Below, one piece after another: positions 3,269 through 59,794 of a stretch of 64,000 nucleotides of DNA; the first letter of the stretch is position 1; each line of letters begins with the position of its first letter. The stretch is from the NCBI GenBank assembly GCA_963775425.1, contig CAVZJB010000009.1:172485-236484 (forward strand), given 5' to 3'. The translations under genes and the position numbers were made by a program. Source of the DNA: an uncultured delta proteobacterium (GTDB taxonomy: Bacteria; Myxococcota; UBA727; VGSZ01). Below the pieces are notes generated by a model. The model was not told the DNA's origin and searched no databases. It worked only from the letters and a program-made list of their open reading frames with translations.

Positions 3269-4066
3269 TCAGCCCAACAGCTCGAACCCGCCGGCCGCCC
3301 GGAGCGTGAGGTTCTGCCACGGTGCGAAGTTGTTCTCGCGGAAGCGCAGCCCGAACTCGTCGGCGCCGGGATCGAGCAGCTTGAGCTCGACGAACATGTT
3401 GCCCTTCTTGGTGCCGCGCAGATCGATCTCGGCACCGTCGGGCGCGTGGAGCACCGCGTCCTCCGAAAGGGCGTAGCCCCGCTCCTTCAGCGCCTTCAGC
3501 GTGGTCCCCGTGGTGGTGAGCTGTGTCACCTGACCGTTCAGGAGCGGGTTCTTCACCCGCCACAGCTCCATGTCCCCGACGAGGGTCTTGTCCGCCGGCG
3601 GCACGACGGAGGCGCCGCCGTGCGCCTTGTCCGCCTCGAAGCGCGACGCTTCCGGGACGTGGCCGCCGACGTCGGCGAGGCTCACCGAGGTGATCTCGCC
3701 GATGCCGCGCTCGCCCGACTCGCGCGCGCGGATGTCGACGGTGAACGGCTTGTTCGGCGACACGTCGAGGCTGACCTCCTCGTTCGCCTTGGCGGTCCCG
3801 CGCAGGTCGATGTCGCCCGAAGGGGTGTGCACGACGCCGTCGTCACCGAGGGTCAAGCCGGCCTGGGCGAGCATGCGCTGCGCCGCCGGGCTGACGCTGA
3901 TGGCGGTGTCGCGCGCGCCGCGGAACCCGGGGTGGTCGTTCTTGGCCGCGAGGTGTTGCGCGACGAAGTTGCGCCCGGCGGGAAAGGCGAACGCGCGCTC
4001 GGCCCGGTTGTCGCGCAGCGGCAGACTGGTCTTTTGTTGTGCCTTGTCGAGCGCGCGGAGCTTCAT
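3269..4066 (-). CDS. Hypothetical protein with two internal about 100 aa repeats
   Basis: ATG at 4066 (rc). Two copies of a segment with G(D/A)IDLRGT(A/K)K(A/G)N ... LKxL. No signal peptide. Family not recognised. Confidence 0.55.
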   Translation of the reverse strand: MKLRALDKAQQKTSLPLRDNRAERAFAFPAGRNFVAQHLAAKNDHPGFRGARDTAISVSPAAQRMLAQAGLTLGDDGVVHTPSGDIDLRGTAKANEEVSLDVSPNKPFTVDIRARESGERGIGEITSVSLADVGGHVPEASRFEADKAHGGASVVPPADKTLVGDMELWRVKNPLLNGQVTQLTTTGTTLKALKERGYALSEDAVLHAPDGAEIDLRGTKKGNMFVELKLLDPGADEFGLRFRENNFAPWQNLTLRAAGGFELLG

Positions 4067-4155
4067 CGTCGTTCCCCTGCCGAGAGGCCGAGCCTAGCAG
4101 AGGCGCCCCGGCATGGGGGGAGCGTGTCGCGGGCTTGCCTGGTAGGATGCGCCCC

Positions 4156-5289
4156 ATGAAGTCCCGCATCGACTCGACTGCAGCGCGCCCGCTCCCTGCG
4201 GTCGCAATCGCGCTGCTCGCCGCCCTCGTGAGCGTCCCCGCGCTGGCCGGCCACGTGGACCGCGAGCGCAACAAGAAGGCCCCCGTCGTCGCCGTCTTCC
4301 CGTTCAAGGTGCTGAACAAGGAAGACAAATTCCAGTCCTACGGCGAGGGTGCGGCCGAGGCCATCATCAACAAGATCGTCAACGACAAGTCGTTGCGCAT
4401 CGTCGAGGAGAGCCAGCTCGACAAGGCCATCAACGCCCTCGCGCGCAACCAGACCGGCTTGTTCGAAGAGGAGAGCGCGCTCGCCGTGGGCCAGATGGTG
4501 GACGCCCGCTTCATCATCATCGGCAGCGTGCAGGTGGTGGCCGATCAGGTCGCCGTCACGTCGCGGCTGCTCGAGGTGGAGACGCGGCAACTGCTGGCCA
4601 GCTCGCGCAGCACGCAGCCCATGGCCAACATCTTCGGCGCCTATGACGAGGTGGCGGCGCAGATGCTCTCGCGCATGACCTTCCACCTCTCGCAGCGCAT
4701 CACCGCCGGCGAGAGCGCCGACGAGATCGCGGTGCGCCAGCTCATCGAGGACGCCAAGGCGTTCGACCCGCAGTTCCCGCCGGCCAAGAGCGCCAAGGGC
4801 GGCGACCTGCCCAAGGACCTGGCGCGCGCCCTCGCGCTCTACAACAAGGCGGTGCTGCGCGATCCCAGGAGCGCCGTCGCGCAGCTCGCCCTCGGCGACG
4901 CCGAGGGCCGCATGAGCGCCGCCATCGCCCGCGCCGACGCCACCCGCTCGCGGCAGCTCCTCGAGAGCGCGCGCGATCACCTCTCGACGTCCACCAACCT
5001 CGACAAGAACAACGTGTTCGCCTGGACCCAGCTCGGGCGTGCCGAGGGCCGGCTGCAGAACCACAGCGCCGCCGAGCTCGCCTTCCGCAACGCGCTCGCC
5101 GTCGACGCCAACTTCGTCGCCGCCCGCTACGGCCTCGCCGTGGCCCTGTTGAACGTGGGCAACCTCCAGGAGGCCCGCGAGAACGCCGCCCAGGCCAAGC
5201 AGGGCGGCGATCCCCGCGCCGCCGGCCTCCTCGGGCAGATCAACCAGCGCATCGCCGCCGAGCGCCAGAAGCCCAACCCACCGAAATAG
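4156..5289 (+). CDS. Secreted CsgG/LpoB-like-fold domain protein with C-terminal TPR repeats
   Basis: In-frame ATG at 4147 or 4156. Signal peptide AVAIALLAALVSVPALA. PVVAVFPFKVLN ... FIIIGSV matches the CsgG/FlgO/LpoB-type fold. TPR-like helices in the C-terminal half. Confidence 0.6.
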   Translation: MKSRIDSTAARPLPAVAIALLAALVSVPALAGHVDRERNKKAPVVAVFPFKVLNKEDKFQSYGEGAAEAIINKIVNDKSLRIVEESQLDKAINALARNQTGLFEEESALAVGQMVDARFIIIGSVQVVADQVAVTSRLLEVETRQLLASSRSTQPMANIFGAYDEVAAQMLSRMTFHLSQRITAGESADEIAVRQLIEDAKAFDPQFPPAKSAKGGDLPKDLARALALYNKAVLRDPRSAVAQLALGDAEGRMSAAIARADATRSRQLLESARDHLSTSTNLDKNNVFAWTQLGRAEGRLQNHSAAELAFRNALAVDANFVAARYGLAVALLNVGNLQEARENAAQAKQGGDPRAAGLLGQINQRIAAERQKPNPPK

Positions 5290-35109: not shown

Positions 35110-36489
35110 ATGACGCTGTGGCTGCGCGTCATCGCCGGGCCCGACCGCGGCAAGCGCATCCCGCTGCGCGCCGGCGCCATCGTCCTCGGCGCCGGCGACG
35201 TCGACGTCCCCCTCAGGGACCCGCGCGTGTCCCGCAGCCACGCGAGCTTCGAGCTCGTCGCCGACGGCGTGCGCGTGCGCGATCTGCGCTCGAAGAACGG
35301 TACGCGGGTGAACGGCGCCCCCACCGCCGAGGCCGTGGTCCGGCCGGGCGCCGTCGTCGAGATCGGCGACACCGCGCTCGTCGTCGACGGCGACGGCGAC
35401 GTCGTCGACGTCCCCCGCACTTCGGGCGCGCGCGGTGCCGGCGCGCCGGCGTTCGGCGCGTCGATGCGGCGCATCGTCGCCGTGCTCGATCGCGCGGCCA
35501 GGAGCGACGTGACGGTGCTCCTGCAAGGAGAGAGCGGCACCGGCAAGGACGTCATGGCGCGCGCGCTTCACGGCAAGAGCTCGCGCGCCAAGGCGCCGTT
35601 CGTCGTCGTCGATTGCGGCGCCATCGCGCCTGGCCTCGTGGCGAGTGAGCTGTTCGGGCACAAGCGGGGCGCCTTCACGTCGGCGCACGAAGACCGCGTC
35701 GGCGCGTTCGAGGCCGCGCGCGGCGGGACGCTCTTCCTCGACGAGATCGGCGAGCTGCCGCTCGAGCTCCAGCCCGCGCTCTTGCGCGTGCTCGAGATGC
35801 GGCAGGTGACACGCGTCGGCGAGAGCCACGCGCGCCACGTCGACGTGCGCGTGGTGGCGGCCACCAACCGCAAGCTGAAGAGCGAGGTGGACGGGGGCCG
35901 CTTCCGCGCCGACTTGTTCTTCCGGTTGGCGGTGGTGAGCGTGGCGTTGCCGCCGTTGCGCGAGCGCAAGGACGAGATCCTCGCGTTCGCCGGTGAGTTC
36001 CTGCGTGAGCAGGGCCGCAGCCTCGACGACGTCGCCGCCGCGGACCGCCGCCGGCTCCTCGAATATCCGTGGCCCGGCAACGTGCGCGAGCTGAAGAACG
36101 TGGTGCTGCGCGCTTGTGCGCTCACGGGCCTCGACGAACCCGTGCGGCTCACCTTCGACGACGACGCCGTCCGCGGCCGCGCGAGCGTCGCCGCCCCGGG
36201 CGCCGCCGGCGAAAGCGCCCGTGTCGAGCGCGGCGCCGCCGCCGTCGACGCGCGCCTCGCGCCGCTCGCAGACGGCGCTTTGCTCGAGCGCACGCTCCCC
36301 GAGGCGCGCCGCGCGATGCTCGACGACCTCGACGCGCGCTACCTCGCGGCGGTGCTCGAGGCGTGCGGCGGCAACGTCAGCGCCGCCGCGCGCAAGGCCG
36401 GCGTGGCCCGCAGCTACTTCCACCGCCTGTTGCAGCGGCACCGCCCGTCCGGCGGGCGCGGGGCGGGCCGCCGCGGGCCGGCGAGGTGA
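35110..36489 (+). CDS. Sigma-54-dependent transcriptional activator with N-terminal FHA domain
   Basis: FHA (GRxxxxDVxLxDPRVSRSHA). AAA+ sigma54-interaction domain with GESGTGKD, GAFTSA-like and ESELFGH motifs. C-terminal HTH. Confidence 0.9.
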   Translation: MTLWLRVIAGPDRGKRIPLRAGAIVLGAGDVDVPLRDPRVSRSHASFELVADGVRVRDLRSKNGTRVNGAPTAEAVVRPGAVVEIGDTALVVDGDGDVVDVPRTSGARGAGAPAFGASMRRIVAVLDRAARSDVTVLLQGESGTGKDVMARALHGKSSRAKAPFVVVDCGAIAPGLVASELFGHKRGAFTSAHEDRVGAFEAARGGTLFLDEIGELPLELQPALLRVLEMRQVTRVGESHARHVDVRVVAATNRKLKSEVDGGRFRADLFFRLAVVSVALPPLRERKDEILAFAGEFLREQGRSLDDVAAADRRRLLEYPWPGNVRELKNVVLRACALTGLDEPVRLTFDDDAVRGRASVAAPGAAGESARVERGAAAVDARLAPLADGALLERTLPEARRAMLDDLDARYLAAVLEACGGNVSAAARKAGVARSYFHRLLQRHRPSGGRGAGRRGPAR

Positions 36490-42516: not shown

Positions 42517-42658
42517 CGCGCGCCTCCTTGGCGCGCCTCCTTGGCGCGCCTCCTTGGCGCGCCTCCTTGGCGCGCCTCCTTGGCGCGCCTCCTCGGCGCG
42601 CCTCCTCGGCGCGCCTCCTTGGCGCGCCTCCTTGGTGCGCCTCCTCGGCGCGCCTCCA
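42517..42658. repeat. 13 bp tandem repeat, about 11 copies (ggcgcgcctcctt)
   Basis: Near-perfect head-to-tail copies directly downstream of the stop (42661) of the minus-strand FG-GAP gene. Confidence 0.85.
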
Positions 42659-42660
42659 CG

Positions 42661-44025
42661 TCAGCGACGCGGCGCTCTGCCTCGGTGCGGCGATCGCGCC
42701 GTGGTGATGATGGCCACGGCGGTCTTGCCCTGGTGCGGCTCGCCGACCAGGACGACGCCGGGGAGCGCCGGCATCGCCACCACATGCACAAACGCAGGGA
42801 CCTCCCACGTCGCCGTCGCATCCAGGGCGAAGCCGGCCGCAGTGCCCTTGTGGAGCGCCGCTCTCCCAGGCTCGCCCAGGTCCAGCAGGTCCGGCACGCC
42901 GTCGCCGTCGAAGTCGACGCTCACCACCGGCAGCGCGCCGTCCATGTGCCCGCCGCGCACGTCGGCCTTCGCCTGCATCGCCAGCGGTTCGCCCCCCTGG
43001 AGCCCCACCTTCACCGGGATCCGCCCGGTGACGACGACGGCCGACAGCGAGACCAGCGACGTGTCCACCTCCGCCACCACCAGCGCGCGGCCGCGTTCAC
43101 CGATGGGCGCCACGAGCCCGTCCCGCCGCCACAGCAAGCGCGGCGACGAAAACGGCCGCGCCGACGTCGACGACACCAGCCACGCCTCCGAGCGCTCGGG
43201 CACCGCGCCGCGCGTCACGCCGATCACGGCGTCGGCGCGGCCGTCCGCGTCGGCGTCGACGATGCGCACACGCAGGTCGGCGTCGCCCGCGCCGACGGTG
43301 CGCCCGAGGTCGCCGGACAGCCACGGACTCGCCTCGAGATCGCCGGCGGTGCGGCGCCACACGACCACCTCCCCCTCGTGCACGGCGATCAGGTCCGTGT
43401 CGCCGTCGGCGTCCACGTCGGCGTCGATGAGGCGCGGCCCATACAGCGACAGCGCCTCCGCGTAGCCCCGATCGGGCCGCAGCCCGCGATGCGCCCGTCC
43501 CGAGTACGCGCGCGCCTCGTGGCGCATGTGCACCAAGCGCGGCGCCTTCGCCGCCTCCCCGCCGCGCGGCGGACGCGGCACGACAAGGAGGCCGTCCACC
43601 ACAGGCAAGCGGAGCTCGCCGTCGCCGTCGCCGCGCTGGCCGCAAAGGTCCGCCACCAGCAGCGCGTCCGCGTCCGGCACCGTGAACAGCGCGTGCCCCT
43701 CGACGAGCACCTTGCCGTCGACGTCCTCGAGGCCCCGCGGTCCCGCGAACACGACGCGGCCGTCAGGGCACGCGTCCACGAAGATCGCGTCGGCCGGGAC
43801 CCGGCTGTCCGCGGCCGCCCGCCGGCCCTCCGCGTCGACGCGGACCAGGCGACGACCCCGCGCGTCCGCGCTCGTGAGCACGATGGTCCGCGGCTTCGCG
43901 AAGAAGGCATCGGAGACCGCGCCGTCGATCGCCACCACCGGCGCAGCAGCGGCGACCACGGCAGCGACGACGGCAATGACGGCGGACAGCACGCCGTCCT
44001 CTATCGCCCCGGCGCGCCCATGCAT
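42661..44025 (-). CDS. Secreted FG-GAP/VCBS-repeat protein
   Basis: ATG at 44025 (MHGRAGAIEDGVLSAVIAVVAAVVAAAAP signal-like). Repeated DxDGDGxxDL motifs (DADVDADGDTDLIAV, DADADGRADAVIGV, DFDGDGVPDLLDLG). Track ORF 42661..44346 is over-extended into non-coding repeats. Confidence 0.65.
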   Translation of the reverse strand: MHGRAGAIEDGVLSAVIAVVAAVVAAAAPVVAIDGAVSDAFFAKPRTIVLTSADARGRRLVRVDAEGRRAAADSRVPADAIFVDACPDGRVVFAGPRGLEDVDGKVLVEGHALFTVPDADALLVADLCGQRGDGDGELRLPVVDGLLVVPRPPRGGEAAKAPRLVHMRHEARAYSGRAHRGLRPDRGYAEALSLYGPRLIDADVDADGDTDLIAVHEGEVVVWRRTAGDLEASPWLSGDLGRTVGAGDADLRVRIVDADADGRADAVIGVTRGAVPERSEAWLVSSTSARPFSSPRLLWRRDGLVAPIGERGRALVVAEVDTSLVSLSAVVVTGRIPVKVGLQGGEPLAMQAKADVRGGHMDGALPVVSVDFDGDGVPDLLDLGEPGRAALHKGTAAGFALDATATWEVPAFVHVVAMPALPGVVLVGEPHQGKTAVAIITTARSPHRGRAPRR

Positions 44026-44040
44026 ACCCACGGACCAAGG

Positions 44041-44230
44041 CAAGAAAGCAGAAGGGGGAAGGGGAGAAGGCAGAAGGCAAGAAGGCAAGAAAGGCAAGAA
44101 GGCAAGAAGGCAAGAAGGCAAGAAGGCAAGAAGGCAAGAAGGCAAGAAGGCAAGAAGGCAAGAAGGCAAGAAGGCAAGAAGGCAAGAAGGCAAGAAGGCA
44201 AGAAGGCAAGAAGGCAAGAAGGCAAGAAGG
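44041..44230. repeat. 8 bp tandem repeat, about 19 perfect copies (ggcaagaa) plus about 4 degenerate copies
   Basis: Perfect octamer array at 44081-44230, starting 16 nt upstream of the FG-GAP start codon. Reads ttcttgcc on the coding strand. Confidence 0.9.
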
Positions 44231-44258
44231 TGGAGGAGCGCTGACGACGAGGCGGGGC

Positions 44259-44490
44259 GGTCAAGCCCCCCAACAGGAGCGCGGCGGAGCCGGCCGCCGC
44301 AGTCCGCTGCGAGGCCGGCTCCGCCGCGAGCTTCGTCCCGCGTCATTGAGGAGGGCGCTGCGCCTCTCGCGAAAGCGCGAGCTCCGCGAGCGGGCCGTTC
44401 GAAGGCACACCCTCAAGCGGGGGGGACCCGCGCGGAGCGCGGGGGGGCCCGGAGGGCCCGGCTGTTCGCGCGCGAAGCGCGCAAAAAAGC
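44259..44490. repeat. Inverted repeat, right arm (about 230 bp)
   Basis: Reverse complement aligns with 42211..42453 along the whole length. Confidence 0.8.
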
Positions 44491-44556: not shown

Positions 44557-45465
44557 TTAGTCGCGCGGCGGCTGGGCCAGGCCCGCGGAGGCGCCGAGGA
44601 CGGCGCCGATGCCGATGCCGAGGGGCAGGGCGTAGCTCGCGGTCTCGCTGATGAACCAGCGGGCGGCGGCGACGAGGTTGGTGTCGACCATCCACGAGGT
44701 CTCGACGGCCGAGGCCGCGCCCGCCGCCGCGAGGACCACGAGGGCGCCGACCGCGCCCATGGCGCTGCCGAGCATCGTGGAGAGCGGAACGACGCGGAAG
44801 CGCGCCGCCACGGGGTGCCCGCCGCCCAGGGCGTGGCTGGCCTCGAGGAGGCGGATGGCCATGCGCTCGGCCACGATGCGGCTGGTCAGGCCGATGACGA
44901 GGACGTCGAGGCCGAAGACAAAGGGAGCCGTCCAGTCGTCGCCCCAGGTGTAGGTCTCGGGGTGAAGGAGCGGGAGCGCGTTGCCGGCGACGAGGGCGAG
45001 CACCGTGCCGAGCACCGCCAGGCGCCGGACGTGGTGCAGGCGCAGCGGATCCGACGCCACGATGCCGGCGAGGCGGCCGCCACCCATGGCGAAGTCATGG
45101 GAGGAGTACGCGTTCTCGACGCGGATGCGCTGGCGCTGGAGCACCGAACGCGCGTCCGCGCCGCGGCCGACCAGGGTGCACAGCACCGCCAGGCCGGACG
45201 CCTCGAGCCCGCGCAAGAGCAGGCCGATCTCCCGGAACAAGCCCAGGCGGGACGGCGCCGCCACCGCGAAGGTCATCACGGGGATGCCCACGACGACGAA
45301 CATCGTCACCATCGGCACTCTCGCGGCCGGGGAGGCCATGAGGCCGAACAGCGCCCCCAACATCATCACCGACGTGAACAAACACCGTTCGCGCCCGCAG
45401 GCGAATCCGGTGGAGCACGGGGTGTCTTGTGGCGTGAAGCCCGAGTAGCGCATCGCTGACCTCAT
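44557..45465 (-). CDS. Polytopic membrane protein, hypothetical
   Basis: Multiple hydrophobic helices. ATG at 45465 or 45453. No recognisable family. Confidence 0.5.
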   Translation of the reverse strand: MRSAMRYSGFTPQDTPCSTGFACGRERCLFTSVMMLGALFGLMASPAARVPMVTMFVVVGIPVMTFAVAAPSRLGLFREIGLLLRGLEASGLAVLCTLVGRGADARSVLQRQRIRVENAYSSHDFAMGGGRLAGIVASDPLRLHHVRRLAVLGTVLALVAGNALPLLHPETYTWGDDWTAPFVFGLDVLVIGLTSRIVAERMAIRLLEASHALGGGHPVAARFRVVPLSTMLGSAMGAVGALVVLAAAGAASAVETSWMVDTNLVAAARWFISETASYALPLGIGIGAVLGASAGLAQPPRD

Positions 45466-45642
45466 CGTGGTGAACCTGATCTCATCGACCGACAACAAGT
45501 GTATCGGCCCGGTTCATCCCCGGCAAAAGCGGGCCGGAGTGTCTCACGCCGGCAGCGTGAGCCCGGTCAACGCCCTCGGTCGACGGGAGGAGGGGGCCGG
45601 AGGCTCGACTTTTCGAGGCCGGATGGCCGAGACTCCCGCTCC

Positions 45643-46521
45643 ATGCGCGCCCCCCTCGTCGCCGTTGCCCTCCTCGCCGCCGCCGCCTGCGGGGGCAGCG
45701 CAGAAGTGGTCCACGGGCTCAGCGAGCTCGAGGCCAACGAGATCATGGTCGTGCTCGAGGCCAAGGGGATCGACTCCGAGAAGCAGGCGGAGCCCGGCCG
45801 CGTGACGACGTGGAAGATCGTCGTGTCCGGCGTGGACGCCAAAGACGCGCGCCGCTACCTGGTGGCCAACCACCTGCCCCGGGCACACAGCCAGGGCCTC
45901 CCCGAGGTCTATCCCGCCGGCGGCGGCGGCCTCATCCCCACCAAGTCCGAGGAGAAGGCCAAGTTCATGATGGCCCTCCAGGGAGAGATCGAAAAGAAGC
46001 TCAAGACCCTCCCCGGCATCGTGTCGGCGCAGGTGACCGTGGTGCAGCCGGAGAAGGACATCGTGCGCGACCTGGACGCGCCGCCGCCCCTGTCCACGGC
46101 GTCGGTGGCCATCGTCTACAACGCCGTCGATCCCCGCGGCAGCGCCGCCGTCAGCCGGGACGAGGTGAAGGACCTGGTGGCGTCGTCGGTGGAGGATCTG
46201 AAGCCGGGCAACGTCACCGTGGTCATGAAGCCCAACGAGCCGGCGGTGATCGTCAGCGAATACGCCGACTCCGGCACCATCGAGGCCCCCATCACTGCGT
46301 CGAGCTGGCTCGGGCTCAAGTTCGCCGACAAGGCCTCGCGCAACAAGCTCGTCGGCTACTTCGCCGTCGGCGGCATCATCGGTGTCCTCTGCCTCGGCGT
46401 CGGCGTCGGCGGCATCGTGCGCTCCATGAGCCTGCGCCGGGCCAAGGCGCGGGCGGAGGCCGAGCTGACCTCGATGCGCAAGGCCGGTCGCGCCACCCAG
46501 ACGGGCCTGCAGCAGGGCTGA
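45643..46521 (+). CDS. YscJ/PrgK/FliF-family inner-membrane ring lipoprotein (SctJ-like)
   Basis: ATG at 45643. Lipobox LLAAAACGG. LSELEANEIMVVLEAKGIDSEK and VSAQVTVVQPEKD match the YscJ family. Single C-terminal TM (LVGYFAVGGIIGVLCLGVGV). 292 aa. Confidence 0.7.
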   Translation: MRAPLVAVALLAAAACGGSAEVVHGLSELEANEIMVVLEAKGIDSEKQAEPGRVTTWKIVVSGVDAKDARRYLVANHLPRAHSQGLPEVYPAGGGGLIPTKSEEKAKFMMALQGEIEKKLKTLPGIVSAQVTVVQPEKDIVRDLDAPPPLSTASVAIVYNAVDPRGSAAVSRDEVKDLVASSVEDLKPGNVTVVMKPNEPAVIVSEYADSGTIEAPITASSWLGLKFADKASRNKLVGYFAVGGIIGVLCLGVGVGGIVRSMSLRRAKARAEAELTSMRKAGRATQTGLQQG

Positions 46522-46544
46522 GGCCGAGGCGCCGCGGAGGGTAG

Positions 46545-47558
46545 GTGCTCGGACGTCTGCTCCATCCGCTGGATCGGCGTCAGCAGACGCTGCTGTTGAC
46601 CATGCTGAGCTTCGGCGGCTCGCAGGGCAAGGAGCTGCTGTCGCTGCTGCCCGACGACGAAGCCGGGATGATGGCCGAGAAGGCGCGGAAGCTCGACGAG
46701 ATCCCGCGCGATCGCCGCATCCCGCTCATGGTGCGCGAGCTCAAGCAGATGATGACGTTTCGCGCCATCAAGGGGCTCGAGGGCGTCGAGCCGTCCTGGT
46801 TGTCGGCGGGGTTCAAGGGCGAGAGCCCGCGGGTCATCGCCATCGCGCTCATGCACATGCCGTCGTCGATCGCGCGGCAGATCGTGGCGCGGCTGCCGGA
46901 TCCCGTGCGCGACGCGCTGCCGCCGCGGGAGGAGCTGCGGCAGGTGCCGCTGTCGGTGGTCAAGCTCGTGCGCGCGCGCTTCGACGCCAAGTTCGCCTCG
47001 ATGCCGCTCGAGCGCGACCTGGCCGAGCTGCAGTTCCGCGACCTCGTGCTGCTCACCGCCAAGGAGCTCGTCACGGTGGTGCGCCACGTCGGCGCCGACG
47101 AGATCGCCTGTGCGTTCCTCGCCGTCGGCAAGCGCGCCCTCGCCGAGTTCCTCTCCAAGCTCAGCCCCGAGGACGCCGAGGAGCTCATCGCCGCCGTCAA
47201 GCGAACCGACATCAAGGACCAGATGGAGCAGAAGGCGGCGCGCGGCTTCCTCGGCAAGGTGCTCCAGGGCTTCAACAACACCGACGAGCTGTTCCAGAAG
47301 GCGGGCCTCTATCGCCTCGCCCGCGCCATCTCCATCGAAGACCCCACCTACGTGCGTCAGATTTCGCAGCGCTTCCCGCGCCCGCACGGCCGGCTGCTCG
47401 GCGAATACCTCGCGCGCGTGCGCGACGAGGAGCTCGACGACGGCCAGGTGCGGCGGCTGCGCGATCAGGTGCTCGACGTCCTCGTCAACCTCTCGCGGCG
47501 CGGAAAGATCGAGGCGCGCTACGGGCAGCGGCCCGTGAAGTACGAGGGGCGCTCGTGA
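46545..47558 (+). CDS. FliG-like protein (rotor/switch-protein fold)
   Basis: GTG at 46545 with GGAGGG 4 nt upstream. N-terminal LDRRQQTLLLTMLSFGGSQGKELLSLL resembles FliG-N. VIAIALMHMPSSIARQIVARLPDPVRDAL and FRDLVLLTAKELVTVVRHVGADEIACAFLAVGKRALAEFLSKLSPEDAEEL resemble FliG middle and C-terminal motifs. Confidence 0.6.
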   Translation: MLGRLLHPLDRRQQTLLLTMLSFGGSQGKELLSLLPDDEAGMMAEKARKLDEIPRDRRIPLMVRELKQMMTFRAIKGLEGVEPSWLSAGFKGESPRVIAIALMHMPSSIARQIVARLPDPVRDALPPREELRQVPLSVVKLVRARFDAKFASMPLERDLAELQFRDLVLLTAKELVTVVRHVGADEIACAFLAVGKRALAEFLSKLSPEDAEELIAAVKRTDIKDQMEQKAARGFLGKVLQGFNNTDELFQKAGLYRLARAISIEDPTYVRQISQRFPRPHGRLLGEYLARVRDEELDDGQVRRLRDQVLDVLVNLSRRGKIEARYGQRPVKYEGRS

Positions 47559-48574
47559 AGATCGACCTGCGCGTCGATCCCACGGCTCGCCGCATCGCCT
47601 TTGCCGCCGCGACGCCGTTCGTGCTCGTCGCCATCGGCAGCGAGGGCTACCACGTCATCGAGGGTTGGAGCTGGCTCGACGCCCTCTACATGACGGTGAC
47701 CACGCTCTCCACGGTGGGCTTCGGCGAGGTGCATCCCCTCTCGGCCGCGGGGCGCATGTTCACCGTCGGTCTCGTGCTCGGCGGCGTCTTCACCATGGCC
47801 GCCGCGGTGACGTCGGTGATCAGCTCTCTGGTTTCAGGCGAGGTGCAAAAGCTCCTCGGGAGGCAGCGCATGGAGCGCAGCTTGGCGTCGATGAAGGACC
47901 ACGTGATCGTCTGCGGCTACGGGCGCATGGGACACATCGTTTGTGACGAGCTGGCGGTCATCAACCAGCCGTTCGTCGCCATCGACCGCGACCACAACCT
48001 CATCGAGCACTTCCCCGGCCACATCGGGGTCGCGCTCGAGGGGGACGCCACGGCCGACGAGGTGCTGCGCAAGGCCGGCATCGACCGCGCCCGCGCCGTC
48101 GTCAGCGCGCTGCCGCACGACGCCGACAACCTCTTCGTCACCATGAGCGCCAAGCTCTTGAACGAGAAGGTCTTCGTCGTCGCGCGCGCCGAAGACCCCG
48201 CCAGCGAGGCCAAGCTCACGCGCGCCGGCGCCAACCGCGTCGTCGCCCCCTACGTCCTCGGCGGCGGCCGCGTGGTGCAGGCGGTGCTCAGGCCGACGGT
48301 GCTCGACTTCATCGACCTCGCCACCAAGACGCACCACATCGAGCTGCAGATGGAGGAGACGTTGGTGCACCACAGCTCCGGCCTCATCGGCAAGAAGCTG
48401 AGCGAGTCCATGAACCGCGAGCACCGCATCATCATCGTGGCCATCAAGCGCAAGAACGGGAAGATGGAATTCAACCCGGGCGGCGAGACCAAGCTCGACG
48501 AGGGCGACACGCTGATCTCCCTCGGGCACCGCCATGACCTCGATCGCCTCGAGCGGCTCGCGGCCGGATCGTAG
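47555..48574 (+). CDS. 2-TM K+ channel with RCK (TrkA-N/TrkA-C) gating domains, MthK/Kch-like
   Basis: GTG at 47555 overlaps the FliG-like stop (GTGA). Pore TLSTVGFGEV. Rossmann VIVCGYGRMG. C-terminal RCK_C. Confidence 0.85.
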   Translation: MKIDLRVDPTARRIAFAAATPFVLVAIGSEGYHVIEGWSWLDALYMTVTTLSTVGFGEVHPLSAAGRMFTVGLVLGGVFTMAAAVTSVISSLVSGEVQKLLGRQRMERSLASMKDHVIVCGYGRMGHIVCDELAVINQPFVAIDRDHNLIEHFPGHIGVALEGDATADEVLRKAGIDRARAVVSALPHDADNLFVTMSAKLLNEKVFVVARAEDPASEAKLTRAGANRVVAPYVLGGGRVVQAVLRPTVLDFIDLATKTHHIELQMEETLVHHSSGLIGKKLSESMNREHRIIIVAIKRKNGKMEFNPGGETKLDEGDTLISLGHRHDLDRLERLAAGS

Positions 48575-49486
48575 TCACCGCTCGACGAGGGGCAGCCGGC
48601 GCTGGCGGCGCTCATCGTCGATGCGCTTGTGCGCGATGGTGCAGTAGTCGCCGTCGCGCTCAACCCCCACCCAGTGACGGTCGAGGCGGTCGGAGGCGAG
48701 CAAGGTCGAACCGGACCCGGCGAAGCAGTCGAGGATGCGGTCCCCCCGGTTCGTCCCCGCGAGGACGATCCGCTCCATCACGCGCAGCGGCTTCTGCGAC
48801 GGGTGCTTGCCGTGCACCCTCTCGCGCGCCGGCGTCACCGGGATCTCCCAGAAGTTGCGCATCTGCTTGCCGCCGTTGAGCGCCTTCATCGAGTCGTAGT
48901 TGAAGGTCCAGTTCTTCGCCTTCTTGTTGGTGTTGTTGCACAGCCACAGGATCTGCTCCGTGCTCTCGGTGAGCATGCGACAGGTGATGTTGGGCTGGGC
49001 GTTCGGCTTCGCCCAGATGATGCTGTTCACGATGCGCAGATCCAGGCGAGCGGCAATGGCACCAATCGTATAGATATTGTGATAGCTCCCGAAGATGAAG
49101 ATGTTGCCGTTCTCCTTGGTGGTGCGGCACACCTCCTTGAGCCATGCGGCGGTGAACTCCTCGTACTCGTCGTGGGTAAACCGATCCCACTCGCTGTCGA
49201 TGGTCACGTGCGAGGAGAACGCCCACGACAGACCCTTTCTGTCGCGAGCAATATTGTATGGTGGATCGGTGATACATGCATGGAAATACCGGTTGCTCCA
49301 TTGCGACAAGGTCTCCAGGCAATTGCCATGGTAGAGCTGGTTGGGCAGCGGACTGACCTTGTCGCTCCCTCGCTTCGGCAGCGTCGAGATCGATCCCGTC
49401 GAAAGCGGACGGGCCACGGGCTCGTACGGCCGCTCGAGATCGAGCGGCTCCACTTCGCCGGCCTGGAACTTCGCCATCGCCACCAT
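48575..49486 (-). CDS. Site-specific DNA methyltransferase, beta-class (motif IV DPPY before motif I FAGSGS), probably N6-adenine
   Basis: ITDPPYNI and LDCFAGSGSTLLA. ATG at 49486. GC content visibly lower than flanks. Stop directly abuts the K+ channel stop, so there is zero intergenic space. Confidence 0.85.
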   Translation of the reverse strand: MVAMAKFQAGEVEPLDLERPYEPVARPLSTGSISTLPKRGSDKVSPLPNQLYHGNCLETLSQWSNRYFHACITDPPYNIARDRKGLSWAFSSHVTIDSEWDRFTHDEYEEFTAAWLKEVCRTTKENGNIFIFGSYHNIYTIGAIAARLDLRIVNSIIWAKPNAQPNITCRMLTESTEQILWLCNNTNKKAKNWTFNYDSMKALNGGKQMRNFWEIPVTPARERVHGKHPSQKPLRVMERIVLAGTNRGDRILDCFAGSGSTLLASDRLDRHWVGVERDGDYCTIAHKRIDDERRQRRLPLVER

Positions 49487-49648: not shown

Positions 49649-51088
49649 TCAGCGGGCCCCGAACACGCCGAGCTCTTCGCGCGTCCAGACGTGCCCGCTG
49701 CCGAGCGGAGCGACGTGGTAGCGCCAGAGCGTGGCGCGCACGTCGAGGGGGCGCGCGCCGTGGAAGGGGTCGCCGGCGAGGAGCGCGAGCACCGACGGCT
49801 CGGCGTCGCGGAGCCGCTCGAGGAACCGGAAGAACCACGGGCTCCGGCGCGGCGAGCCGAGCGCGGCGAACCACATCTGCCAGTCGAGCCGTGGCTGGTG
49901 CGGCGCGACGAAGCCGGGGAGCGCGTCGACGTCGCCGGGCTTGTCCTTGAACGCGTACGGCAGCCAGGTCTCTCCGTCGAGCGTGCCCTCGACGACGATC
50001 TCGTCGCGCTCGGTGGTCATGCTGGCGAACAGCCCATAGCCGCCGGCGACGAGGAACGGCTCCACGCGCATCATGACGTCGTCGAACGGCAGCGGCGCGC
50101 GCACCAGCCGCTCGGTCTCGGCGAGCAGGCCGAGGACGATGAGCACGCACGAGAGGACGGCGACGGCGGCGCGTCCGGCCCCCGCGCGCGCCACGGGGGC
50201 CCGCGCGGCCGCGGCCGGCGGCGACGACGATCCGCTCGAAGCCGAGGCCGGCAGGAGGGCGCGGGCGAGAGAGCGCCAGGCGTCGTCGTCGACGGCGGCG
50301 AGGGCGAGGACGGTGGTGAGCGCGTTGAAGAACGCGAAGTTGCCGGTGAGCGCGATGACCGCTTGCAGGAGCGTCATCCCCGCGACGGCGGCGTGGCGCA
50401 CCTTGCGCAGCGGCACGAAGAGGAGAGGGGGGAGGCCGAGCTGGATGACGAACATCAGGAGGCACGACAGATCGAGCAGCGGCGCCGGCAGGTGGTGCGC
50501 GAGCCAGCCCACGGGCGTCGGCAGCGGCTGCGTCTCGAAGTGGAAGTGGAGCGCGGTGAGGGAGCGCCAGCTCTCGTCGCCCGAGAGGAGCTTCGACAGG
50601 CCCGAGCCCATCTCGAGCCGCGCCGCCAGCGCCCACACGAGGACCAACGAAAACGGCGAGGGCCGCCGCGGCGACATCAGCGCCGCGACGATGAGCGACT
50701 CGCACAGGAGCATGTCCCACTGGTAGCCGAGGAAGATCTGCCCGGCGCCGCACAGCGACAGGTAGAGCGCGTACGCGACCAAAAGCGCGGGGCCGGCGAA
50801 GACGTCGGCGACGGCGAGGGCCGACGCGATCATGCCGGCGGCGCAGAAGGCGAGCAGCCAGCCGTCGCTCGCGCCGGTGAGCCAGAACAGCGAAGGCAGC
50901 CGCGTCACGCGCTCGACGAGGTCGAGGCGGTCGGCGACGCGCTCGAAGAACGCTTGCGCGGGGAGGATGCCGTGCGCCCCCACGAGCCCGCGGAGCTGCG
51001 CGGCGAGCGAGGCGAACGCGACGAGCGCGCAGCCGCCGACGCCGCGAACGACGACGGCGCGGGCGACGCGGAAGCGCTCAGCCCACAT
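49649..51088 (-). CDS. Lipase maturation factor (LMF)-family membrane protein
   Basis: Polytopic. Conserved LMF-like C-terminal segment (DxxWxxYxF..., WQMWFAAL). 479 aa. Confidence 0.65.
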   Translation of the reverse strand: MWAERFRVARAVVVRGVGGCALVAFASLAAQLRGLVGAHGILPAQAFFERVADRLDLVERVTRLPSLFWLTGASDGWLLAFCAAGMIASALAVADVFAGPALLVAYALYLSLCGAGQIFLGYQWDMLLCESLIVAALMSPRRPSPFSLVLVWALAARLEMGSGLSKLLSGDESWRSLTALHFHFETQPLPTPVGWLAHHLPAPLLDLSCLLMFVIQLGLPPLLFVPLRKVRHAAVAGMTLLQAVIALTGNFAFFNALTTVLALAAVDDDAWRSLARALLPASASSGSSSPPAAAARAPVARAGAGRAAVAVLSCVLIVLGLLAETERLVRAPLPFDDVMMRVEPFLVAGGYGLFASMTTERDEIVVEGTLDGETWLPYAFKDKPGDVDALPGFVAPHQPRLDWQMWFAALGSPRRSPWFFRFLERLRDAEPSVLALLAGDPFHGARPLDVRATLWRYHVAPLGSGHVWTREELGVFGAR

Positions 51089-57399: not shown

Positions 57400-58092
57400 G
57401 TGAACGGCGTCATCTTCCAGTGCGCGGCATGCCGCGCGCTCGCCGTCGCGGACTCCATCCGCGTCGACGGTGACCGCGCCGGCCTCGCGTGCACGGCGTG
57501 CGGCGCCATCACCATGCTCCCCGTCGCCCACCGCGGCGGCGCCCGCGTCGTCGTCGACGCGGAGTCGCCTCGCCCCGCGCCCCCGCCCAAGGAGCTGCCC
57601 GCGCCGTCGTCGCTCGCGCCCGCCGGCCAGGTCGCGGTGCGTGACGGTGGGCTCGACGGGGCCGCGCGCGAGCGCGTCGCCGCCCGCGTCGCCAGGCTGC
57701 CGCCGGTCGCCGAGCAACAGGAGACGCTGGCGGCCGGCTTCGACAAGCTCCTCGCGCGTTGGGACGACGCCGCCGAGCACAAGCGCCTGTTGAAGAGCGC
57801 GGCCATCGCGGGCGAGCTCGCGTTCATGGGGCAGCGCTACCGGGCGGTGCTCGAAGAGGTCCCCGGCGACGCCGCGGCCAAGACCGCGCAAAACGAGATC
57901 ATGACGCTCGCCATGGCGTCGCTGACGGCCCGCAAGGACCTCGGCGCACCGGAGAAGAGCGCGGGCCAGAGGACACAGTGGATCGCCGCCGCGGTCCTCG
58001 CCGTCGTCTTCGCGGCGGTCACGCTCTGGCTTTTGCCCAAGCTTTTGCCTCCGGACCAGGACGGGGCGACAATCGAGAGAACCCACCGATGA
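57400..58092 (+). CDS. Zinc-ribbon protein with C-terminal TM, hypothetical
   Basis: GTG at 57400. CAAC...CTAC ribbon. C-terminal hydrophobic segment. Stop overlaps the next start (ATGA). Confidence 0.5.
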   Translation: MNGVIFQCAACRALAVADSIRVDGDRAGLACTACGAITMLPVAHRGGARVVVDAESPRPAPPPKELPAPSSLAPAGQVAVRDGGLDGAARERVAARVARLPPVAEQQETLAAGFDKLLARWDDAAEHKRLLKSAAIAGELAFMGQRYRAVLEEVPGDAAAKTAQNEIMTLAMASLTARKDLGAPEKSAGQRTQWIAAAVLAVVFAAVTLWLLPKLLPPDQDGATIERTHR

Positions 58093-58646
58093 CCGACGCT
58101 GACGCCCTGATCGAGGAAGCCGAGCGCAACGCGCAGTCGCTCGTCGAAGAGGCGCGCGCGCAGGTGAAGGAGATGATCGCGGCGGCCGCCGAAGAGGGCG
58201 AGCGCGAGGGGGCGGCGCAGGCTGAGCACATGCGCGACGAGATCCAGCATCTGCTCGAGCGCATGCTCAAGGAGGTCGACGGGGAGGTGGTGCGCACCGC
58301 GATGCGGGTCGCGCGCGCGCTGCTCGCCGCGGAGACGCAGATGCGCGAGGACGCCGTCGTCGACGTCGCCGCCACCGCGCTGCAGGCGGCCAAGACCGCG
58401 CGCGACATCAACCTGCGCGCGAGCCCCCGCGACGCGCCTGTGCTGCGGCGCGACAAGGCGCGCCTCGTCAGCGTGCTCACCCGCGCCAAGGACCTGGAGA
58501 TCCGCGAGGACCGGCGCGTGAACCCCGGCGGAGTCCTCATCGAGACGGAGTCCGGCGTCGTCGACGCGCAACTCGACACCCAGCTCGAGGAGCTCGAGCA
58601 GGTGCTCGAGCGCAAGGGCGCGCGTGGTGCGCAGGAGCAGGCGTAG
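58089..58646 (+). CDS. FliH/SctL-like protein (type III export stator-family fold)
   Basis: Coiled-coil N half. C-terminal RVNPGGVLIETESGVVDAQLDTQLEEL matches the FliH/YscL C-terminal consensus. 185 aa. Confidence 0.5.
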   Translation: MTDADALIEEAERNAQSLVEEARAQVKEMIAAAAEEGEREGAAQAEHMRDEIQHLLERMLKEVDGEVVRTAMRVARALLAAETQMREDAVVDVAATALQAAKTARDINLRASPRDAPVLRRDKARLVSVLTRAKDLEIREDRRVNPGGVLIETESGVVDAQLDTQLEELEQVLERKGARGAQEQA

Positions 58647-59794
58647 TGGCGCGCGTCATCAAAGCGGGCCAAGGAGGACAGAAGCCCGCGCGCCCCGCGA
58701 CGCGCATGATCGTCGACGCCGGCGACAAGAAGATCATCGATCGCGCGCTCTATCAGGCGAAGCAGGACGCCGAGCACATCCTGATGCGCGCCGAGCACGA
58801 GCGGCAAGCCATCATCGCGGACGGCAAGAAGCAGTCGGCGCGCACCCGCGAGGAGGCCATGGTGCGCGGAGCGTCCGAGGCGTTCGCGGCGGCGGCGGCG
58901 GAGGCGCTGGCGGCGTTTCGCGCGCGCGCCGATCGCTACGGCGAGGCCGCCGACGACATCCGCGCCCTCGCGCTGGAGGTGGTGAGGAAGGTGCTCGGCA
59001 ACGAGCCCGATCTCGGACCCAAGGACGTCGAGCGCATCCTGCAGCGCGGCATGACGCAGTTGCGGGCGCGCCGCCGGCTGCGGCTGCAGGTGGCCAACGG
59101 GCGGCTCGGCCAGCTTCACACCGAGCGGCCCAACCTGATGAAGGCGCTGCAAAACGAGCCCGACCTCGTCATCGAGGACGTCGACGACGTCAGCGAGGGG
59201 TTCGCGCGCGTCGTCACGGAGATCGGCGGCGCCTTGTGCGCCGAAGAGACCGCCCTCGACGCGCTCAGCGTGAGCGTCAACGTGCACGAGCAGCCACGCT
59301 CGCAGCGGGCGAGCACCGGCGAGACCAACGTCAACACCGCGCCCAAGGGCTTGCAGGCGCTGCAGCGGCCATCCACCGACGAGAGCCTCCCCGACGCGGC
59401 CGTCGTCGAGGACGAGATCCCCGACGACGGCGACGACACCATGAACATGGCGGCCTCGAGCGAGCGTACCCGCCCGCGGCGCGCGTACACCCGCGGCGAC
59501 GACGTCGAGGAGATCGAGGCCGAGGAGGACAGCATCGGCGACGAGCCCACCTCCACGCGGCGCGCGGGGCGCGGCGCGGGCGAGCGCGTGCAGATCTCGC
59601 CCGGAACACGCGCGGCGACGCGCGTCGTCCCCATCGACGCCCGCAAGGACGCGCGCGCGCTCCCCGCGGGCGACAGCGACGAGACGTTGCGCCACGCGCC
59701 GATGATCGTCGACGAGGACGCGAGCAGTGAAGAGGACGAAGACCTCGACCTGTTCACCGACGACGCCGTGAAGACCCCGAGGAAGAAGCGCTGA
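58646..59794 (+). CDS. Second FliH/SctL-like protein with long acidic C-terminal tail
   Basis: GTG at 58646 overlaps the previous stop (TAGTG). Coiled-coil, ALALEVVRKVL, IEDVDDVSEGFARVVTEIGGALCAEETALDAL. C-terminal 120 aa are acidic and disordered. Confidence 0.45.
   Translation: MARVIKAGQGGQKPARPATRMIVDAGDKKIIDRALYQAKQDAEHILMRAEHERQAIIADGKKQSARTREEAMVRGASEAFAAAAAEALAAFRARADRYGEAADDIRALALEVVRKVLGNEPDLGPKDVERILQRGMTQLRARRRLRLQVANGRLGQLHTERPNLMKALQNEPDLVIEDVDDVSEGFARVVTEIGGALCAEETALDALSVSVNVHEQPRSQRASTGETNVNTAPKGLQALQRPSTDESLPDAAVVEDEIPDDGDDTMNMAASSERTRPRRAYTRGDDVEEIEAEEDSIGDEPTSTRRAGRGAGERVQISPGTRAATRVVPIDARKDARALPAGDSDETLRHAPMIVDEDASSEEDEDLDLFTDDAVKTPRKKR

What the first reader, a model, noticed from the sequence alone, without database searches (positions are those of the whole stretch)
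45643..48574. Orphan operon: YscJ/FliF-like ring lipoprotein, FliG-like protein and RCK-gated K+ channel, all translationally coupled
A lipoprotein with YscJ/PrgK-family hallmarks is followed 23 nt later by a protein with FliG-like N-terminal, middle and C-terminal motifs. That protein's stop overlaps (GTGA) the start of an MthK-like K+ channel. No other flagellar or injectisome genes are adjacent, and the organism type is not expected to be flagellated. Coupling an MS-ring-like plus rotor-like pair to an ion channel is, to my knowledge, not a described arrangement. It could be a minimal membrane-ring scaffold that uses or senses a K+ flux.
Basis: partly seen in the sequence, partly recalled or inferred. 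Interest (0 to 1): 0.8.

Follow-up and report, generated by a model that had tools for sequence, protein, structure and literature searches.

The report
Detached piece of myxobacterial type III secretion
The ring lipoprotein and FliG-like protein are real, but they are a split-off module of the needle-less type III secretion system of myxobacteria, and the potassium channel is a recent neighbour in one small sub-lineage.

Summary
The three + strand genes exist as described. They are an SctJ/YscJ-type lipoprotein (45643-46521), a FliG-like protein (46545-47558, 23 nt gap with a GGAGG site) and a 2TM K+ channel with an RCK domain (47555-48574, GTGA overlap). HMM and fold searches confirm all three identities. 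The conserved unit is the SctJ-like/FliG-like pair, present in about 19 related loci. The channel follows only in the closest sub-clade: 6 loci, all with a FliG-like protein about 75% or more identical. Elsewhere a convergent methylase follows directly. More distant members of the same FliG-like family sit inside Myxococcota type III secretion clusters, always directly upstream of sctL-sctN-sctO-sctP-sctQ-sctRST. This is the slot held by fliG in flagellar operons and by sctK in injectisome operons. The window is not free of such genes: two tandem SctL/FliH paralogs lie 9.5 kb downstream. Relatives carry SctN, SctO and an FHA protein within 9 kb of the pair. The best reading is a scattered Myxo-type T3SS in which the FliG-like protein links the SctJ ring to the cytoplasmic platform. 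The side result worth following up is that Myxo-type T3SSs keep a FliG homologue, and that its model also resembles SctK.

The parts
45643..46521 (+). SctJ/YscJ-type inner-membrane ring lipoprotein (292 aa). It has a lipobox, two ring-building domains, a C-terminal TM helix and a conserved cytoplasmic helical tail.
   Evidence: Pfam YscJ_FliF 1.8e-20. TIGR02544 SctJ 7e-36, but 123.8 bits is below the equivalog cut-off of 161.95. The alignment of 15 homologues shows a conserved lipobox Cys, a TM segment and the tail motif LxKAEAExxALRKAR. It is 39% identical to the SctJ of a Myxococcaceae T3SS cluster.
46522..46544 (+). 23-nt intergenic spacer with a GGAGGG ribosome-binding site 6 nt before the GTG start.
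   Evidence: Sequence read directly.
46545..47558 (+). FliG-like protein (337 aa) with N, M and C domains. It belongs to a distinct family that occupies the fliG/sctK slot of Myxococcota T3SS clusters.
47555..48574 (+). 2TM K+ channel with a C-terminal RCK/KTN domain. It is co-transcribed (4-nt GTGA overlap) but is a neighbour acquired in one lineage, not a conserved part of the system.
   Evidence: Pfam Ion_trans_2 1.3e-17, TrkA_N 6.4e-32, TrkA_C 5.3e-13. It is present after the FliG-like gene only in W, L006, L007, L008, L030 and L031. In L009, L010, L014 and L021 the convergent methylase follows the pair, directly or nearly so (L014 has one gene between).
58089..58646 (+). SctL/FliH-family paralog 1 (185 aa; lacks the N-terminal segment).
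   Evidence: Pfam FliH 3.4e-18. tblastn with the Myxococcaceae SctL gives 7e-14. It is 51% identical to the syntenic gene in L014. Its ATG overlaps the stop of the upstream gene.
58646..59794 (+). SctL/FliH-family paralog 2 (382 aa). It has a full-length SctL-like N-terminal part, including an MARVIKAG start motif, followed by a long acidic disordered tail.
   Evidence: No Pfam hit. hhalign against an SctL/FliH alignment gives probability 98.2%, E 5e-14 over 203 columns. Homologues lie 2-9.5 kb upstream of FliG-like genes in L013, L015, L023, L035 and L045.
57400..58092 (+). Protein with a zinc ribbon and a C-terminal TM helix. It is translationally coupled to SctL paralog 1. Its role is unknown, but it is conserved in synteny.
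   Evidence: Translation shows CxxC...CxxC and a TM helix. Homologues occupy the same position in L010 and L014. No Pfam hit.
44557..45498 (-). Multi-pass membrane protein (313 aa) transcribed divergently from the SctJ-like gene. A possible accessory, conserved only in the nearer relatives.
   Evidence: No Pfam hit. It is 55-71% identical in L006-L010 and L031, and 50% in L018, always just upstream of the SctJ-like gene on the opposite strand.

Best explanation
The SctJ-like and FliG-like genes are the inner-membrane ring and ring-adaptor module of a Myxococcota-type, needle-less type III secretion system. In this uncultured Myxococcota lineage the genes of that system are scattered among housekeeping genes.

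Shown: both proteins are homologues of components that sit side by side in intact Myxococcaceae T3SS clusters, in the order sctJ, fliG-like, sctL, sctN, sctO, sctP, sctQ, fliO, sctRST. The window also encodes two SctL/FliH paralogs 9.5 kb downstream.

Inferred: the lipoprotein forms a periplasmic ring through its two ring-building domains. Its conserved cytoplasmic helix docks into the FliG_N-like domain, as FliF_C does with FliG_N. The FliG_M-like domain, with its invariant E-S-P-R motif (the EHPQR equivalent), binds a FliM/SctQ-like protein. The SctL paralogs tether an SctN ATPase encoded elsewhere in the genome.

The residues that would align with the stator-contacting charges of FliG do not look conserved, so this is a static adaptor rather than a rotor. 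This point rests on a weak alignment.

The K+ channel was inserted at the 3' end of the operon in one sub-clade. It is co-expressed, but there is no evidence that it is part of the machine.
For: Family identity.

The pair is conserved in about 19 loci from genomes and metagenomes.

The FliG-like protein is as conserved as housekeeping enzymes between the same genome pairs. For W vs L010 it is 71% identical, against aminotransferase 74% and Lgt 57%. There are 57 invariant columns across 22 sequences.

Two other subfamilies of the FliG-like family lie directly upstream of sctL inside full T3SS clusters (L025-L027; L028-L029).

T3SS genes lie near the detached pair: SctL paralogs in the window and L014; SctN (66% identical to the Myxococcaceae SctN), SctO and an FHA/Yop-YscD_cpl protein in L020; and SctO in L017.

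FliH2 homologues recur near FliG-like genes in a clade with a different gene order.

The channel is restricted to the sub-clade with about 75% or more identity.
Against: No sctN, sctQ or sctRSTUV gene is present in the 64-kb window. The rest of the genome could not be read, so a complete secretion apparatus is not demonstrated for this organism.

None of the roughly 39 loci of the window-type subfamily shows an export-gate gene within 10 kb.

One clade lacks an SctJ-like gene next to the FliG-like gene.

All protein-protein contacts are inferred from homology.

The channel start overlaps the FliG-like stop in W, L007 and L008, which is at least compatible with selection for co-expression.
Confidence: 0.68

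Rival explanations
1. Repurposed remnant. The lineage has lost the export gate and ATPase. It keeps only the SctJ ring, the FliG-like adaptor and the SctL paralogs as a membrane-anchored scaffold with a new, non-secretory role, such as a positional landmark or a platform for other proteins.
For: No export-gate, sctQ or sctN gene lies within 10 kb of any window-type locus except L020 and L017. The window-type SctJ has gained a conserved cytoplasmic helix that the cluster-embedded Myxococcaceae SctJ lacks. The FliG-like protein is strongly conserved. Partners vary between clades: a Zn-ribbon protein replaces SctJ in one clade, and a PMT_2-like protein lies upstream in another.
Against: L020 keeps a well-conserved SctN (66% identical to the Myxococcaceae SctN), SctO and an FHA protein 5-9 kb from the pair. 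Retaining SctL paralogs makes most sense if an ATPase is present. T3SS genes scattered over several loci are known from other bacteria (Chlamydiales; PMC3459982).
Confidence: 0.2
2. A minimal MS-ring-like and rotor-like pair is functionally coupled to the RCK-gated K+ channel, using or sensing a K+ flux.
For: The 4-nt GTGA start/stop overlap is kept in W, L007 and L008. The channel is about as conserved as the FliG-like protein within that sub-clade (75-78% identity).
Against: The channel is absent from all loci whose FliG-like protein is 71% identical or less, while the pair persists down to 48% identity. In L009, L010 and L021 the convergent methylase directly follows the pair (in L014 one gene lies between), which marks the channel as an insertion. 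The family's ancestral context is a T3SS cluster without any channel. The stretch that aligns with the FliG torque helix does not keep the Arg and Asp-Asp charges (low-confidence alignment).
Confidence: 0.07
3. True flagellar genes (fliF/fliG) of a flagellated or formerly flagellated Myxococcota lineage.
For: JGI annotation calls many family members 'flagellar motor switch protein FliG'. There are Pfam FliG_M and FliG_C hits.
Against: The ring protein is a 292-aa lipoprotein of the SctJ type (TIGR02544 123.8 bits against TIGR00206 fliF 29.7 bits). The FliG equivalog model scores 18.5 bits against a cut-off of 226.7. A profile of the family finds only 491 representatives among 1.84 billion proteins, so it does not merge with canonical FliG. 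No rod, hook, MotAB or flagellin genes occur in the window or in the cluster-embedded loci.
Confidence: 0.03

Closest known systems
Myxococcales 'Myxo' non-flagellar T3SS, also called the needle-less T3SS* of Myxococcus xanthus (mxan_2434-2464). Described by Abby & Rocha 2012 (PMC3459982); function in prey lysis described in PMC12075869.
   Same: SctJ, SctL, SctN and SctO homologues share 30-66% identity. The FliG-like protein belongs to the same family as the gene found between sctJ and sctL in Myxococcaceae/Archangiaceae clusters. The phylum is the same.
   Different: Here the genes are not in one cluster. The sctJ/fliG-like pair and the sctL paralogs are 9.5 kb apart among housekeeping genes, and the export gate is not in view. 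The FliG-like protein lacks the long Pro-rich tail of the Myxococcaceae proteins. The SctJ has a conserved cytoplasmic helix instead of a short Gly-rich tail. SctL is duplicated. The 2012 description states that Myxo systems lack FliG.
Flagellar FliF-FliG (MS ring and C-ring adaptor; fliF-fliG-fliH-fliI-fliJ operon order, from general knowledge).
   Same: The gene order is ring protein, then FliG-type protein, then FliH-type protein. The architecture is three domains, N, M and C. The EHPQ(R) motif position is kept as E-S-P-R. The ring protein has a cytoplasmic C-terminal helix available to bind the N domain.
   Different: The ring protein is a short SctJ-type lipoprotein, not the 550-aa FliF. 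The FliG equivalog score is far below its cut-off. The stator-contact charges appear not to be conserved (weak alignment). There are no MotAB, rod or hook genes.
SctK (PscK/YscK/OrgA), the injectisome adaptor between the SctD/SctJ rings and the SctQ pods. Operon order sctJ-sctK-sctL, from general knowledge.
   Different: No sequence similarity is detectable: the profile finds only FliG in the PDB. SctK is about 200 aa and a single domain, whereas this protein is 337 aa and still recognisably FliG.
Chlamydial FliF with a fused FliG-like domain (Bergeron 2016, PMC4768692).
   Same: A FliF/SctJ-type ring protein is associated with a FliG-like module in a non-flagellated organism that has scattered T3SS genes.
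   Different: That case is a single fused polypeptide of the FliF type. Here there are two separate genes, the ring protein is of the SctJ type, and the phylum is different.
MthK/Kch-type prokaryotic K+ channels with an RCK (KTN) domain.
   Same: Ion_trans_2, TrkA_N and TrkA_C domains, a TVGFG filter and 2 TM helices.
   Different: Nothing unusual in the protein itself. Only its operon position is unusual.

Membership tests
SctJ/YscJ/PrgK inner-membrane ring lipoprotein (PF01514; TIGR02544) | Match to the YscJ_FliF domain covering both ring-building motifs | tested here: met
   PF01514 1.8e-20, 74 bits vs cut-off 24.4, profile positions 9-172 of 179.
SctJ/YscJ/PrgK inner-membrane ring lipoprotein (PF01514; TIGR02544) | N-terminal lipoprotein signal with a lipobox cysteine | tested here: met
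   MRAPLVAVALLAAAAC in the window. The Cys is conserved in all 15 aligned homologues.
SctJ/YscJ/PrgK inner-membrane ring lipoprotein (PF01514; TIGR02544) | Equivalog-level score for SctJ (TIGR02544) | tested here: not met
   123.8 bits against a cut-off of 161.95. It is the best-scoring NCBIfam family (fliF scores only 29.7 bits), so the protein is SctJ-like but divergent.
SctJ/YscJ/PrgK inner-membrane ring lipoprotein (PF01514; TIGR02544) | Forms an oligomeric ring in the inner membrane | not testable with these tools
   No multimer prediction is available.
FliG flagellar rotor/switch protein (TIGR00207; PF14842/14841/01706) | Three-domain N-M-C fold | tested here: met
   [not shown]
FliG flagellar rotor/switch protein (TIGR00207; PF14842/14841/01706) | Equivalog-level sequence score | tested here: not met
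   TIGR00207 scores 18.5 bits against a cut-off of 226.7. The family profile retrieves 491 representatives, not the canonical FliG universe.
FliG flagellar rotor/switch protein (TIGR00207; PF14842/14841/01706) | EHPQR motif of FliG_M (the FliM-binding site) | tested here: inconclusive
   It aligns as G-E-S-P-R. E93 and R96 are invariant and P95 is nearly invariant. The Glu and Pro are kept, but the His is not.
FliG flagellar rotor/switch protein (TIGR00207; PF14842/14841/01706) | Charged torque-helix residues that contact MotA | tested here: inconclusive
   In the HMMER alignment to T. maritima FliG, KRAAALLKDELE aligns with PEDAEELIAAVK, so the charges are not matched. That segment scores only 6 bits.
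FliG flagellar rotor/switch protein (TIGR00207; PF14842/14841/01706) | Genomic association with flagellar rod, hook and stator genes | tested here: not met
   None are present in the 64-kb window or in loci L025-L029.
Myxococcota-type NF-T3SS (T3SS*) | Homologues of its SctJ and of the gene between sctJ and sctL | tested here: met
   tblastn with L025 proteins against the window: SctJ 39% identity at 2e-25, FliG-like 28% identity at 4e-21. A profile search links the families at 1e-39 or better.
Myxococcota-type NF-T3SS (T3SS*) | SctL present | tested here: met
   Two paralogs at 58089-59794.
Myxococcota-type NF-T3SS (T3SS*) | Core export apparatus and ATPase (sctN, sctQ, sctRSTUV) in the same genome | not testable with these tools
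   They are absent from the 64-kb window. The 394-kb source contig could not be fetched. SctN and SctO are seen next to the pair in the relative L020.
SctK (injectisome sorting-platform adaptor) | Operon position between sctJ and sctL | tested here: met
   This holds for the cluster-embedded relatives L025-L029. In the window the sctL genes are displaced by 9.5 kb.
SctK (injectisome sorting-platform adaptor) | Fold or sequence similarity to solved SctK | tested here: inconclusive
   [not shown]
RCK-gated 2TM K+ channel (MthK-like) | Pore domain with a K+ selectivity filter plus a C-terminal RCK domain | tested here: met
   Ion_trans_2, TrkA_N and TrkA_C are all far above their cut-offs. TVGFG and GYGRMG are visible in the translation.

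The most novel reading that the evidence does not exclude
The FliG-like family is the surviving intermediate between flagellar FliG and injectisome SctK. The earliest-branching non-flagellar T3SSs still use a recognisable FliG homologue to join the SctJ ring to the FliM/SctQ platform. In the window's lineage this ring-adaptor module, with a duplicated SctL, has been uncoupled from the export-gate cluster and may act as an independent membrane scaffold.
Probability: 0.25. Interest if true: 0.7.

Novelty: new variant of a known kind. Interest (0 to 1): 0.42.

Why it matters
Taken as a K+-driven mini-rotor, the finding would have been remarkable, but the evidence does not support that reading.

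What remains is smaller but useful for the evolution of type III secretion. The published description of the basal 'Myxo' T3SS says it lacks FliG (PMC3459982). Here a conserved FliG homologue is found in the fliG/sctK slot of those clusters across at least three subfamilies, and its model also resembles SctK. This gives a concrete, testable candidate for how the flagellar MS-ring/C-ring junction turned into the injectisome basal-body/sorting-platform junction. It also gives a candidate structural gene to delete in the M. xanthus predation T3SS*.

The window further shows that uncultured Myxococcota carry this system in a scattered form that cluster-based detection tools would miss.

Tried and rejected
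1. dN/dS (Nei-Gojobori) for the three genes gave 0.24-1.08. I rejected it as uninformative: GC3 of about 95% compresses synonymous differences. I used amino-acid identity relative to housekeeping neighbours instead.

2. I tried an AF2 prediction of the SctJ tail fused by a linker to the FliG-like protein, with a paired alignment (A3), to test the FliF_C:FliG_N-like contact.

3. The Foldseek afdb50 library was unavailable.

4. I tried to fetch the 394-kb source contig in order to look for the remaining T3SS genes. Only a 3.4-kb Logan contig was returned. The cluster look-up gave no names.

5. Literature searches for a FliG homologue in Myxococcus T3SS, or for an SctK-FliG relationship, found no statement of either. 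That library is incomplete.

6. The promoter and terminator scan of 45300-48800 found nothing above chance.

7. I considered that the 382-aa ORF after FliH1 might be a degenerate SctN. This was rejected: there is no ATPase similarity, and hhalign shows it is a second SctL/FliH.

Full report
**What is in the sequence**

The window is high-GC DNA (72%). Three consecutive + strand ORFs at 45643-48574 carry the strong third-position GC bias of real genes (GC3 0.91-0.95).

- The first ORF is annotated from ATG 45643, the same start called on an independent contig. It begins with a lipoprotein signal, MRAPLVAVALLAAAAC.
- It matches Pfam YscJ_FliF at 1.8e-20 over nearly the whole profile.
- It scores best against the SctJ model TIGR02544 (7e-36), although its 123.8 bits fall below the equivalog cut-off of 161.95. 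The FliF model scores only 29.7 bits.
- The second ORF (46545-47558) passes the Pfam gathering thresholds for FliG_M and FliG_C, though narrowly.
- The third ORF (47555-48574) is a 2TM K+ channel with TrkA_N and TrkA_C domains, a TVGFG filter and a GYGRMG dinucleotide-binding motif.
- The 23-nt spacer carries a GGAGGG site before the GTG of the second gene. The GTGA overlap between the second and third genes is present as described.

**Is the middle protein really FliG-like?**

Yes.

- A profile of 22 family members finds only FliG chains in the PDB. It aligns the invariant GESPR stretch with the EHPQ motif of the FliG middle domain.
- The AlphaFold2 model has a mean pLDDT of 82.
- The 13 best Foldseek matches in the PDB are all FliG, aligned over their full length.

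It is nevertheless not a canonical FliG. The FliG equivalog model gives 18.5 bits against a cut-off of 226.7. An exhaustive profile search of 1.84 billion representative proteins returns only 491 hits, so this is a separate family. The segment that aligns with the FliG torque helix does not keep the stator-contacting Arg and Asp-Asp. That alignment is weak, so I treat this point as a hint only.

**What is conserved**

I collected 19 loci from species-representative genomes and 20 from metagenomes. All come from uncultured Myxococcota or 'Deltaproteobacteria'.

- The SctJ-like gene lies directly upstream of the FliG-like gene in about 19 loci, spanning 77% down to 48% FliG-like identity.
- The channel follows the FliG-like gene only in W, L006, L007, L008, L030 and L031, all with about 75% or more identity. 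It is missing from every more distant locus that has downstream sequence.
- In L009, L010 and L021 the convergent N6/N4 DNA methylase abuts the pair directly. In L014 it follows after one intervening gene. In the window the same methylase lies after the channel. The channel is therefore an insertion in one sub-clade.
- The pair is clearly under constraint. Between the same genome pairs the FliG-like protein is as conserved as an aminotransferase and more conserved than Lgt.

**Where the pair comes from**

The representative search showed more distant subfamilies, some with long Pro-rich tails. I searched two of them and looked up their genomic context.

- In Myxococcaceae-type contigs the order is T3SS_needle_F-like, YscJ_FliF, FliG-like, FliH, T3SS ATPase, YscO, Flg_hook-like, FliM+FliMN_C, FliO, FliP, FliQ, FliR, FlhB (L025-L027).
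- In a lower-GC subfamily the FliG-like gene again sits directly upstream of FliH, the ATPase, YscO, FliM, FliN, FliO, FliP, FliQ and FliR, with the YscJ gene a few genes further upstream (L028, L029).
- These are the 'Myxo' non-flagellar T3SS loci of Abby and Rocha (PMC3459982). In M. xanthus this is the needle-less T3SS* (mxan_2434-2464), which is needed for prey lysis and is recruited by the Kil Tad pilus (PMC12075869).
- From general knowledge, flagellar operons run fliF-fliG-fliH-fliI-fliJ and injectisome operons run sctJ-sctK-sctL-sctN-sctO. The FliG-like gene therefore occupies the fliG/sctK slot.

**The window is not free of T3SS genes**

- tblastn with the proteins of L025 hit the window at 58098-58607 with SctL.
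- Pfam confirms a FliH domain there at 3.4e-18.
- The next ORF (58646-59794) has no Pfam hit. It is nevertheless a second SctL/FliH paralog by profile-profile comparison: probability 98.2%, E 5e-14 over 203 columns, including the N-terminal RVIK-type motif.
- These two genes, together with an upstream gene for a Zn-ribbon/TM protein, overlap start to stop.
- The arrangement is syntenic in L010 and L014.
- Homologues of the second paralog lie 2-9.5 kb upstream of the FliG-like gene in a differently organised clade: L013, L015, L023, L035 and L045. This argues for a functional link rather than chance proximity.
- In L020 an SctN (66% identical to the Myxococcaceae SctN, with a T3SS_ATPase_C domain), an SctO and an FHA/Yop-YscD_cpl-TPR protein lie 5-9 kb upstream of the pair. 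L017 has an SctO at the edge of the fetched region.
- The remaining genes of the 64-kb window are housekeeping or regulatory. None encodes SctN, SctQ or the export gate.

**Most likely mechanism**

Shown by homology and synteny: the two genes encode the ring (SctJ) component and the fliG/sctK-slot component of a Myxococcota-type T3SS whose genes are dispersed in this lineage.

Inferred:
- The lipoprotein forms the periplasmic inner-membrane ring.
- Its C-terminal TM helix leads to a conserved amphipathic cytoplasmic helix (LxKAEAExxALRKAR). This helix docks into the FliG_N-like domain in the way FliF_C binds FliG_N.
- The middle domain, through the conserved E-S-P-R site, binds a FliM-domain SctQ.
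- The two SctL paralogs, possibly as a heterodimer, hold the ATPase.

I also could not establish that the organism has the export gate, because the source contig beyond the window was not retrievable.

The main rival is that the lineage keeps only this scaffold and uses it for something else.

The coupled-channel idea retains a small probability. The start/stop overlap is kept within the sub-clade, but nothing else supports it.

**Comparison with what is known, and novelty**

The system is a variant of the known Myxo-type T3SS. The channel is an ordinary MthK/Kch-like protein.

Two points seem not to be in the literature I could search.

- Myxo-type T3SS clusters contain a genuine FliG homologue. 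The 2012 analysis lists FliG among the proteins these systems lack. Annotation pipelines, however, already label some members as FliG or 'FliG C-terminal domain-containing'.

Together with the operon position, this suggests that SctK descends from FliG through proteins of this kind. The structural match is moderate for an all-helical fold and needs a proper baseline.

**Verdict**

- The headline interpretation, an orphan ring-rotor-channel unit, is not supported.
- The pair is a detached module of a known kind of system.
- Interest is moderate. It rests on the FliG/SctK evolutionary link and on the scattered organisation, not on the K+ channel.

Noticed in passing
window 44037-44230 and 42518-42657: Two tandem arrays flank or enter the FG-GAP repeat gene 42661-44346(-). 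An 8-nt unit AAGGCAAG x24.5 lies inside its 5' part and is read in frame as repeated LLAFLPSC. A 13-nt unit x10.8 lies just 3' of the gene. An 8-nt period inside a coding region could cause frame-shifting length variation.
   Followed up: partly
window 48575-49486 (-): An N6/N4 DNA methyltransferase sits in a local GC dip (0.63 against 0.70-0.75). It is nevertheless the best conserved gene of the neighbourhood (71-79% amino-acid identity in L006, L008, L010, L014 and L021), with no restriction enzyme beside it. It looks like a conserved orphan, CcrM-like methylase.
   Followed up: partly
L011, L013, L015 (e.g. L015:8477-9946), L035:6052-7305: One clade of FliG-like genes, carrying an insertion of about 25 aa, has no SctJ-like gene upstream. 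In its place is a protein of about 490 aa with two zinc ribbons, a TM segment and an uncharacterised C-terminal domain. An SctL-paralog-2 homologue lies 3-9 kb upstream. This may be a replacement membrane anchor.
   Followed up: partly
L017:6880-9051, L020:6764-9016, L019:1-1791, L039:4432-6501, L047:59-733: A 720-750 aa PMT_2-like (glycosyltransferase family 39-type) membrane protein lies directly upstream of the SctJ-like gene in the more distant half of the family.
   Followed up: no
window 57400-58092 (+): A protein with an N-terminal zinc ribbon, a Pro-rich linker and a C-terminal TM helix is translationally coupled to the first SctL/FliH paralog. It is conserved in L010 and L014 and has no Pfam match.
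   Followed up: partly
[not shown]
   Followed up: partly
window 49649-51088 (-) and 35110-36489 (+): There is a homologue of the eukaryote-typical lipase maturation factor (LMF1 and LMF1_C domains) and an FHA-domain sigma-54 activator. Both are unrelated to the finding.
   Followed up: no
window 4039-5289 (+): A lipoprotein-like protein has weak FlgO/LpoB/CsgG-type N-terminal matches plus TPR repeats. The FlgO hit is marginal (26.5 bits) and I did not pursue it.
   Followed up: no
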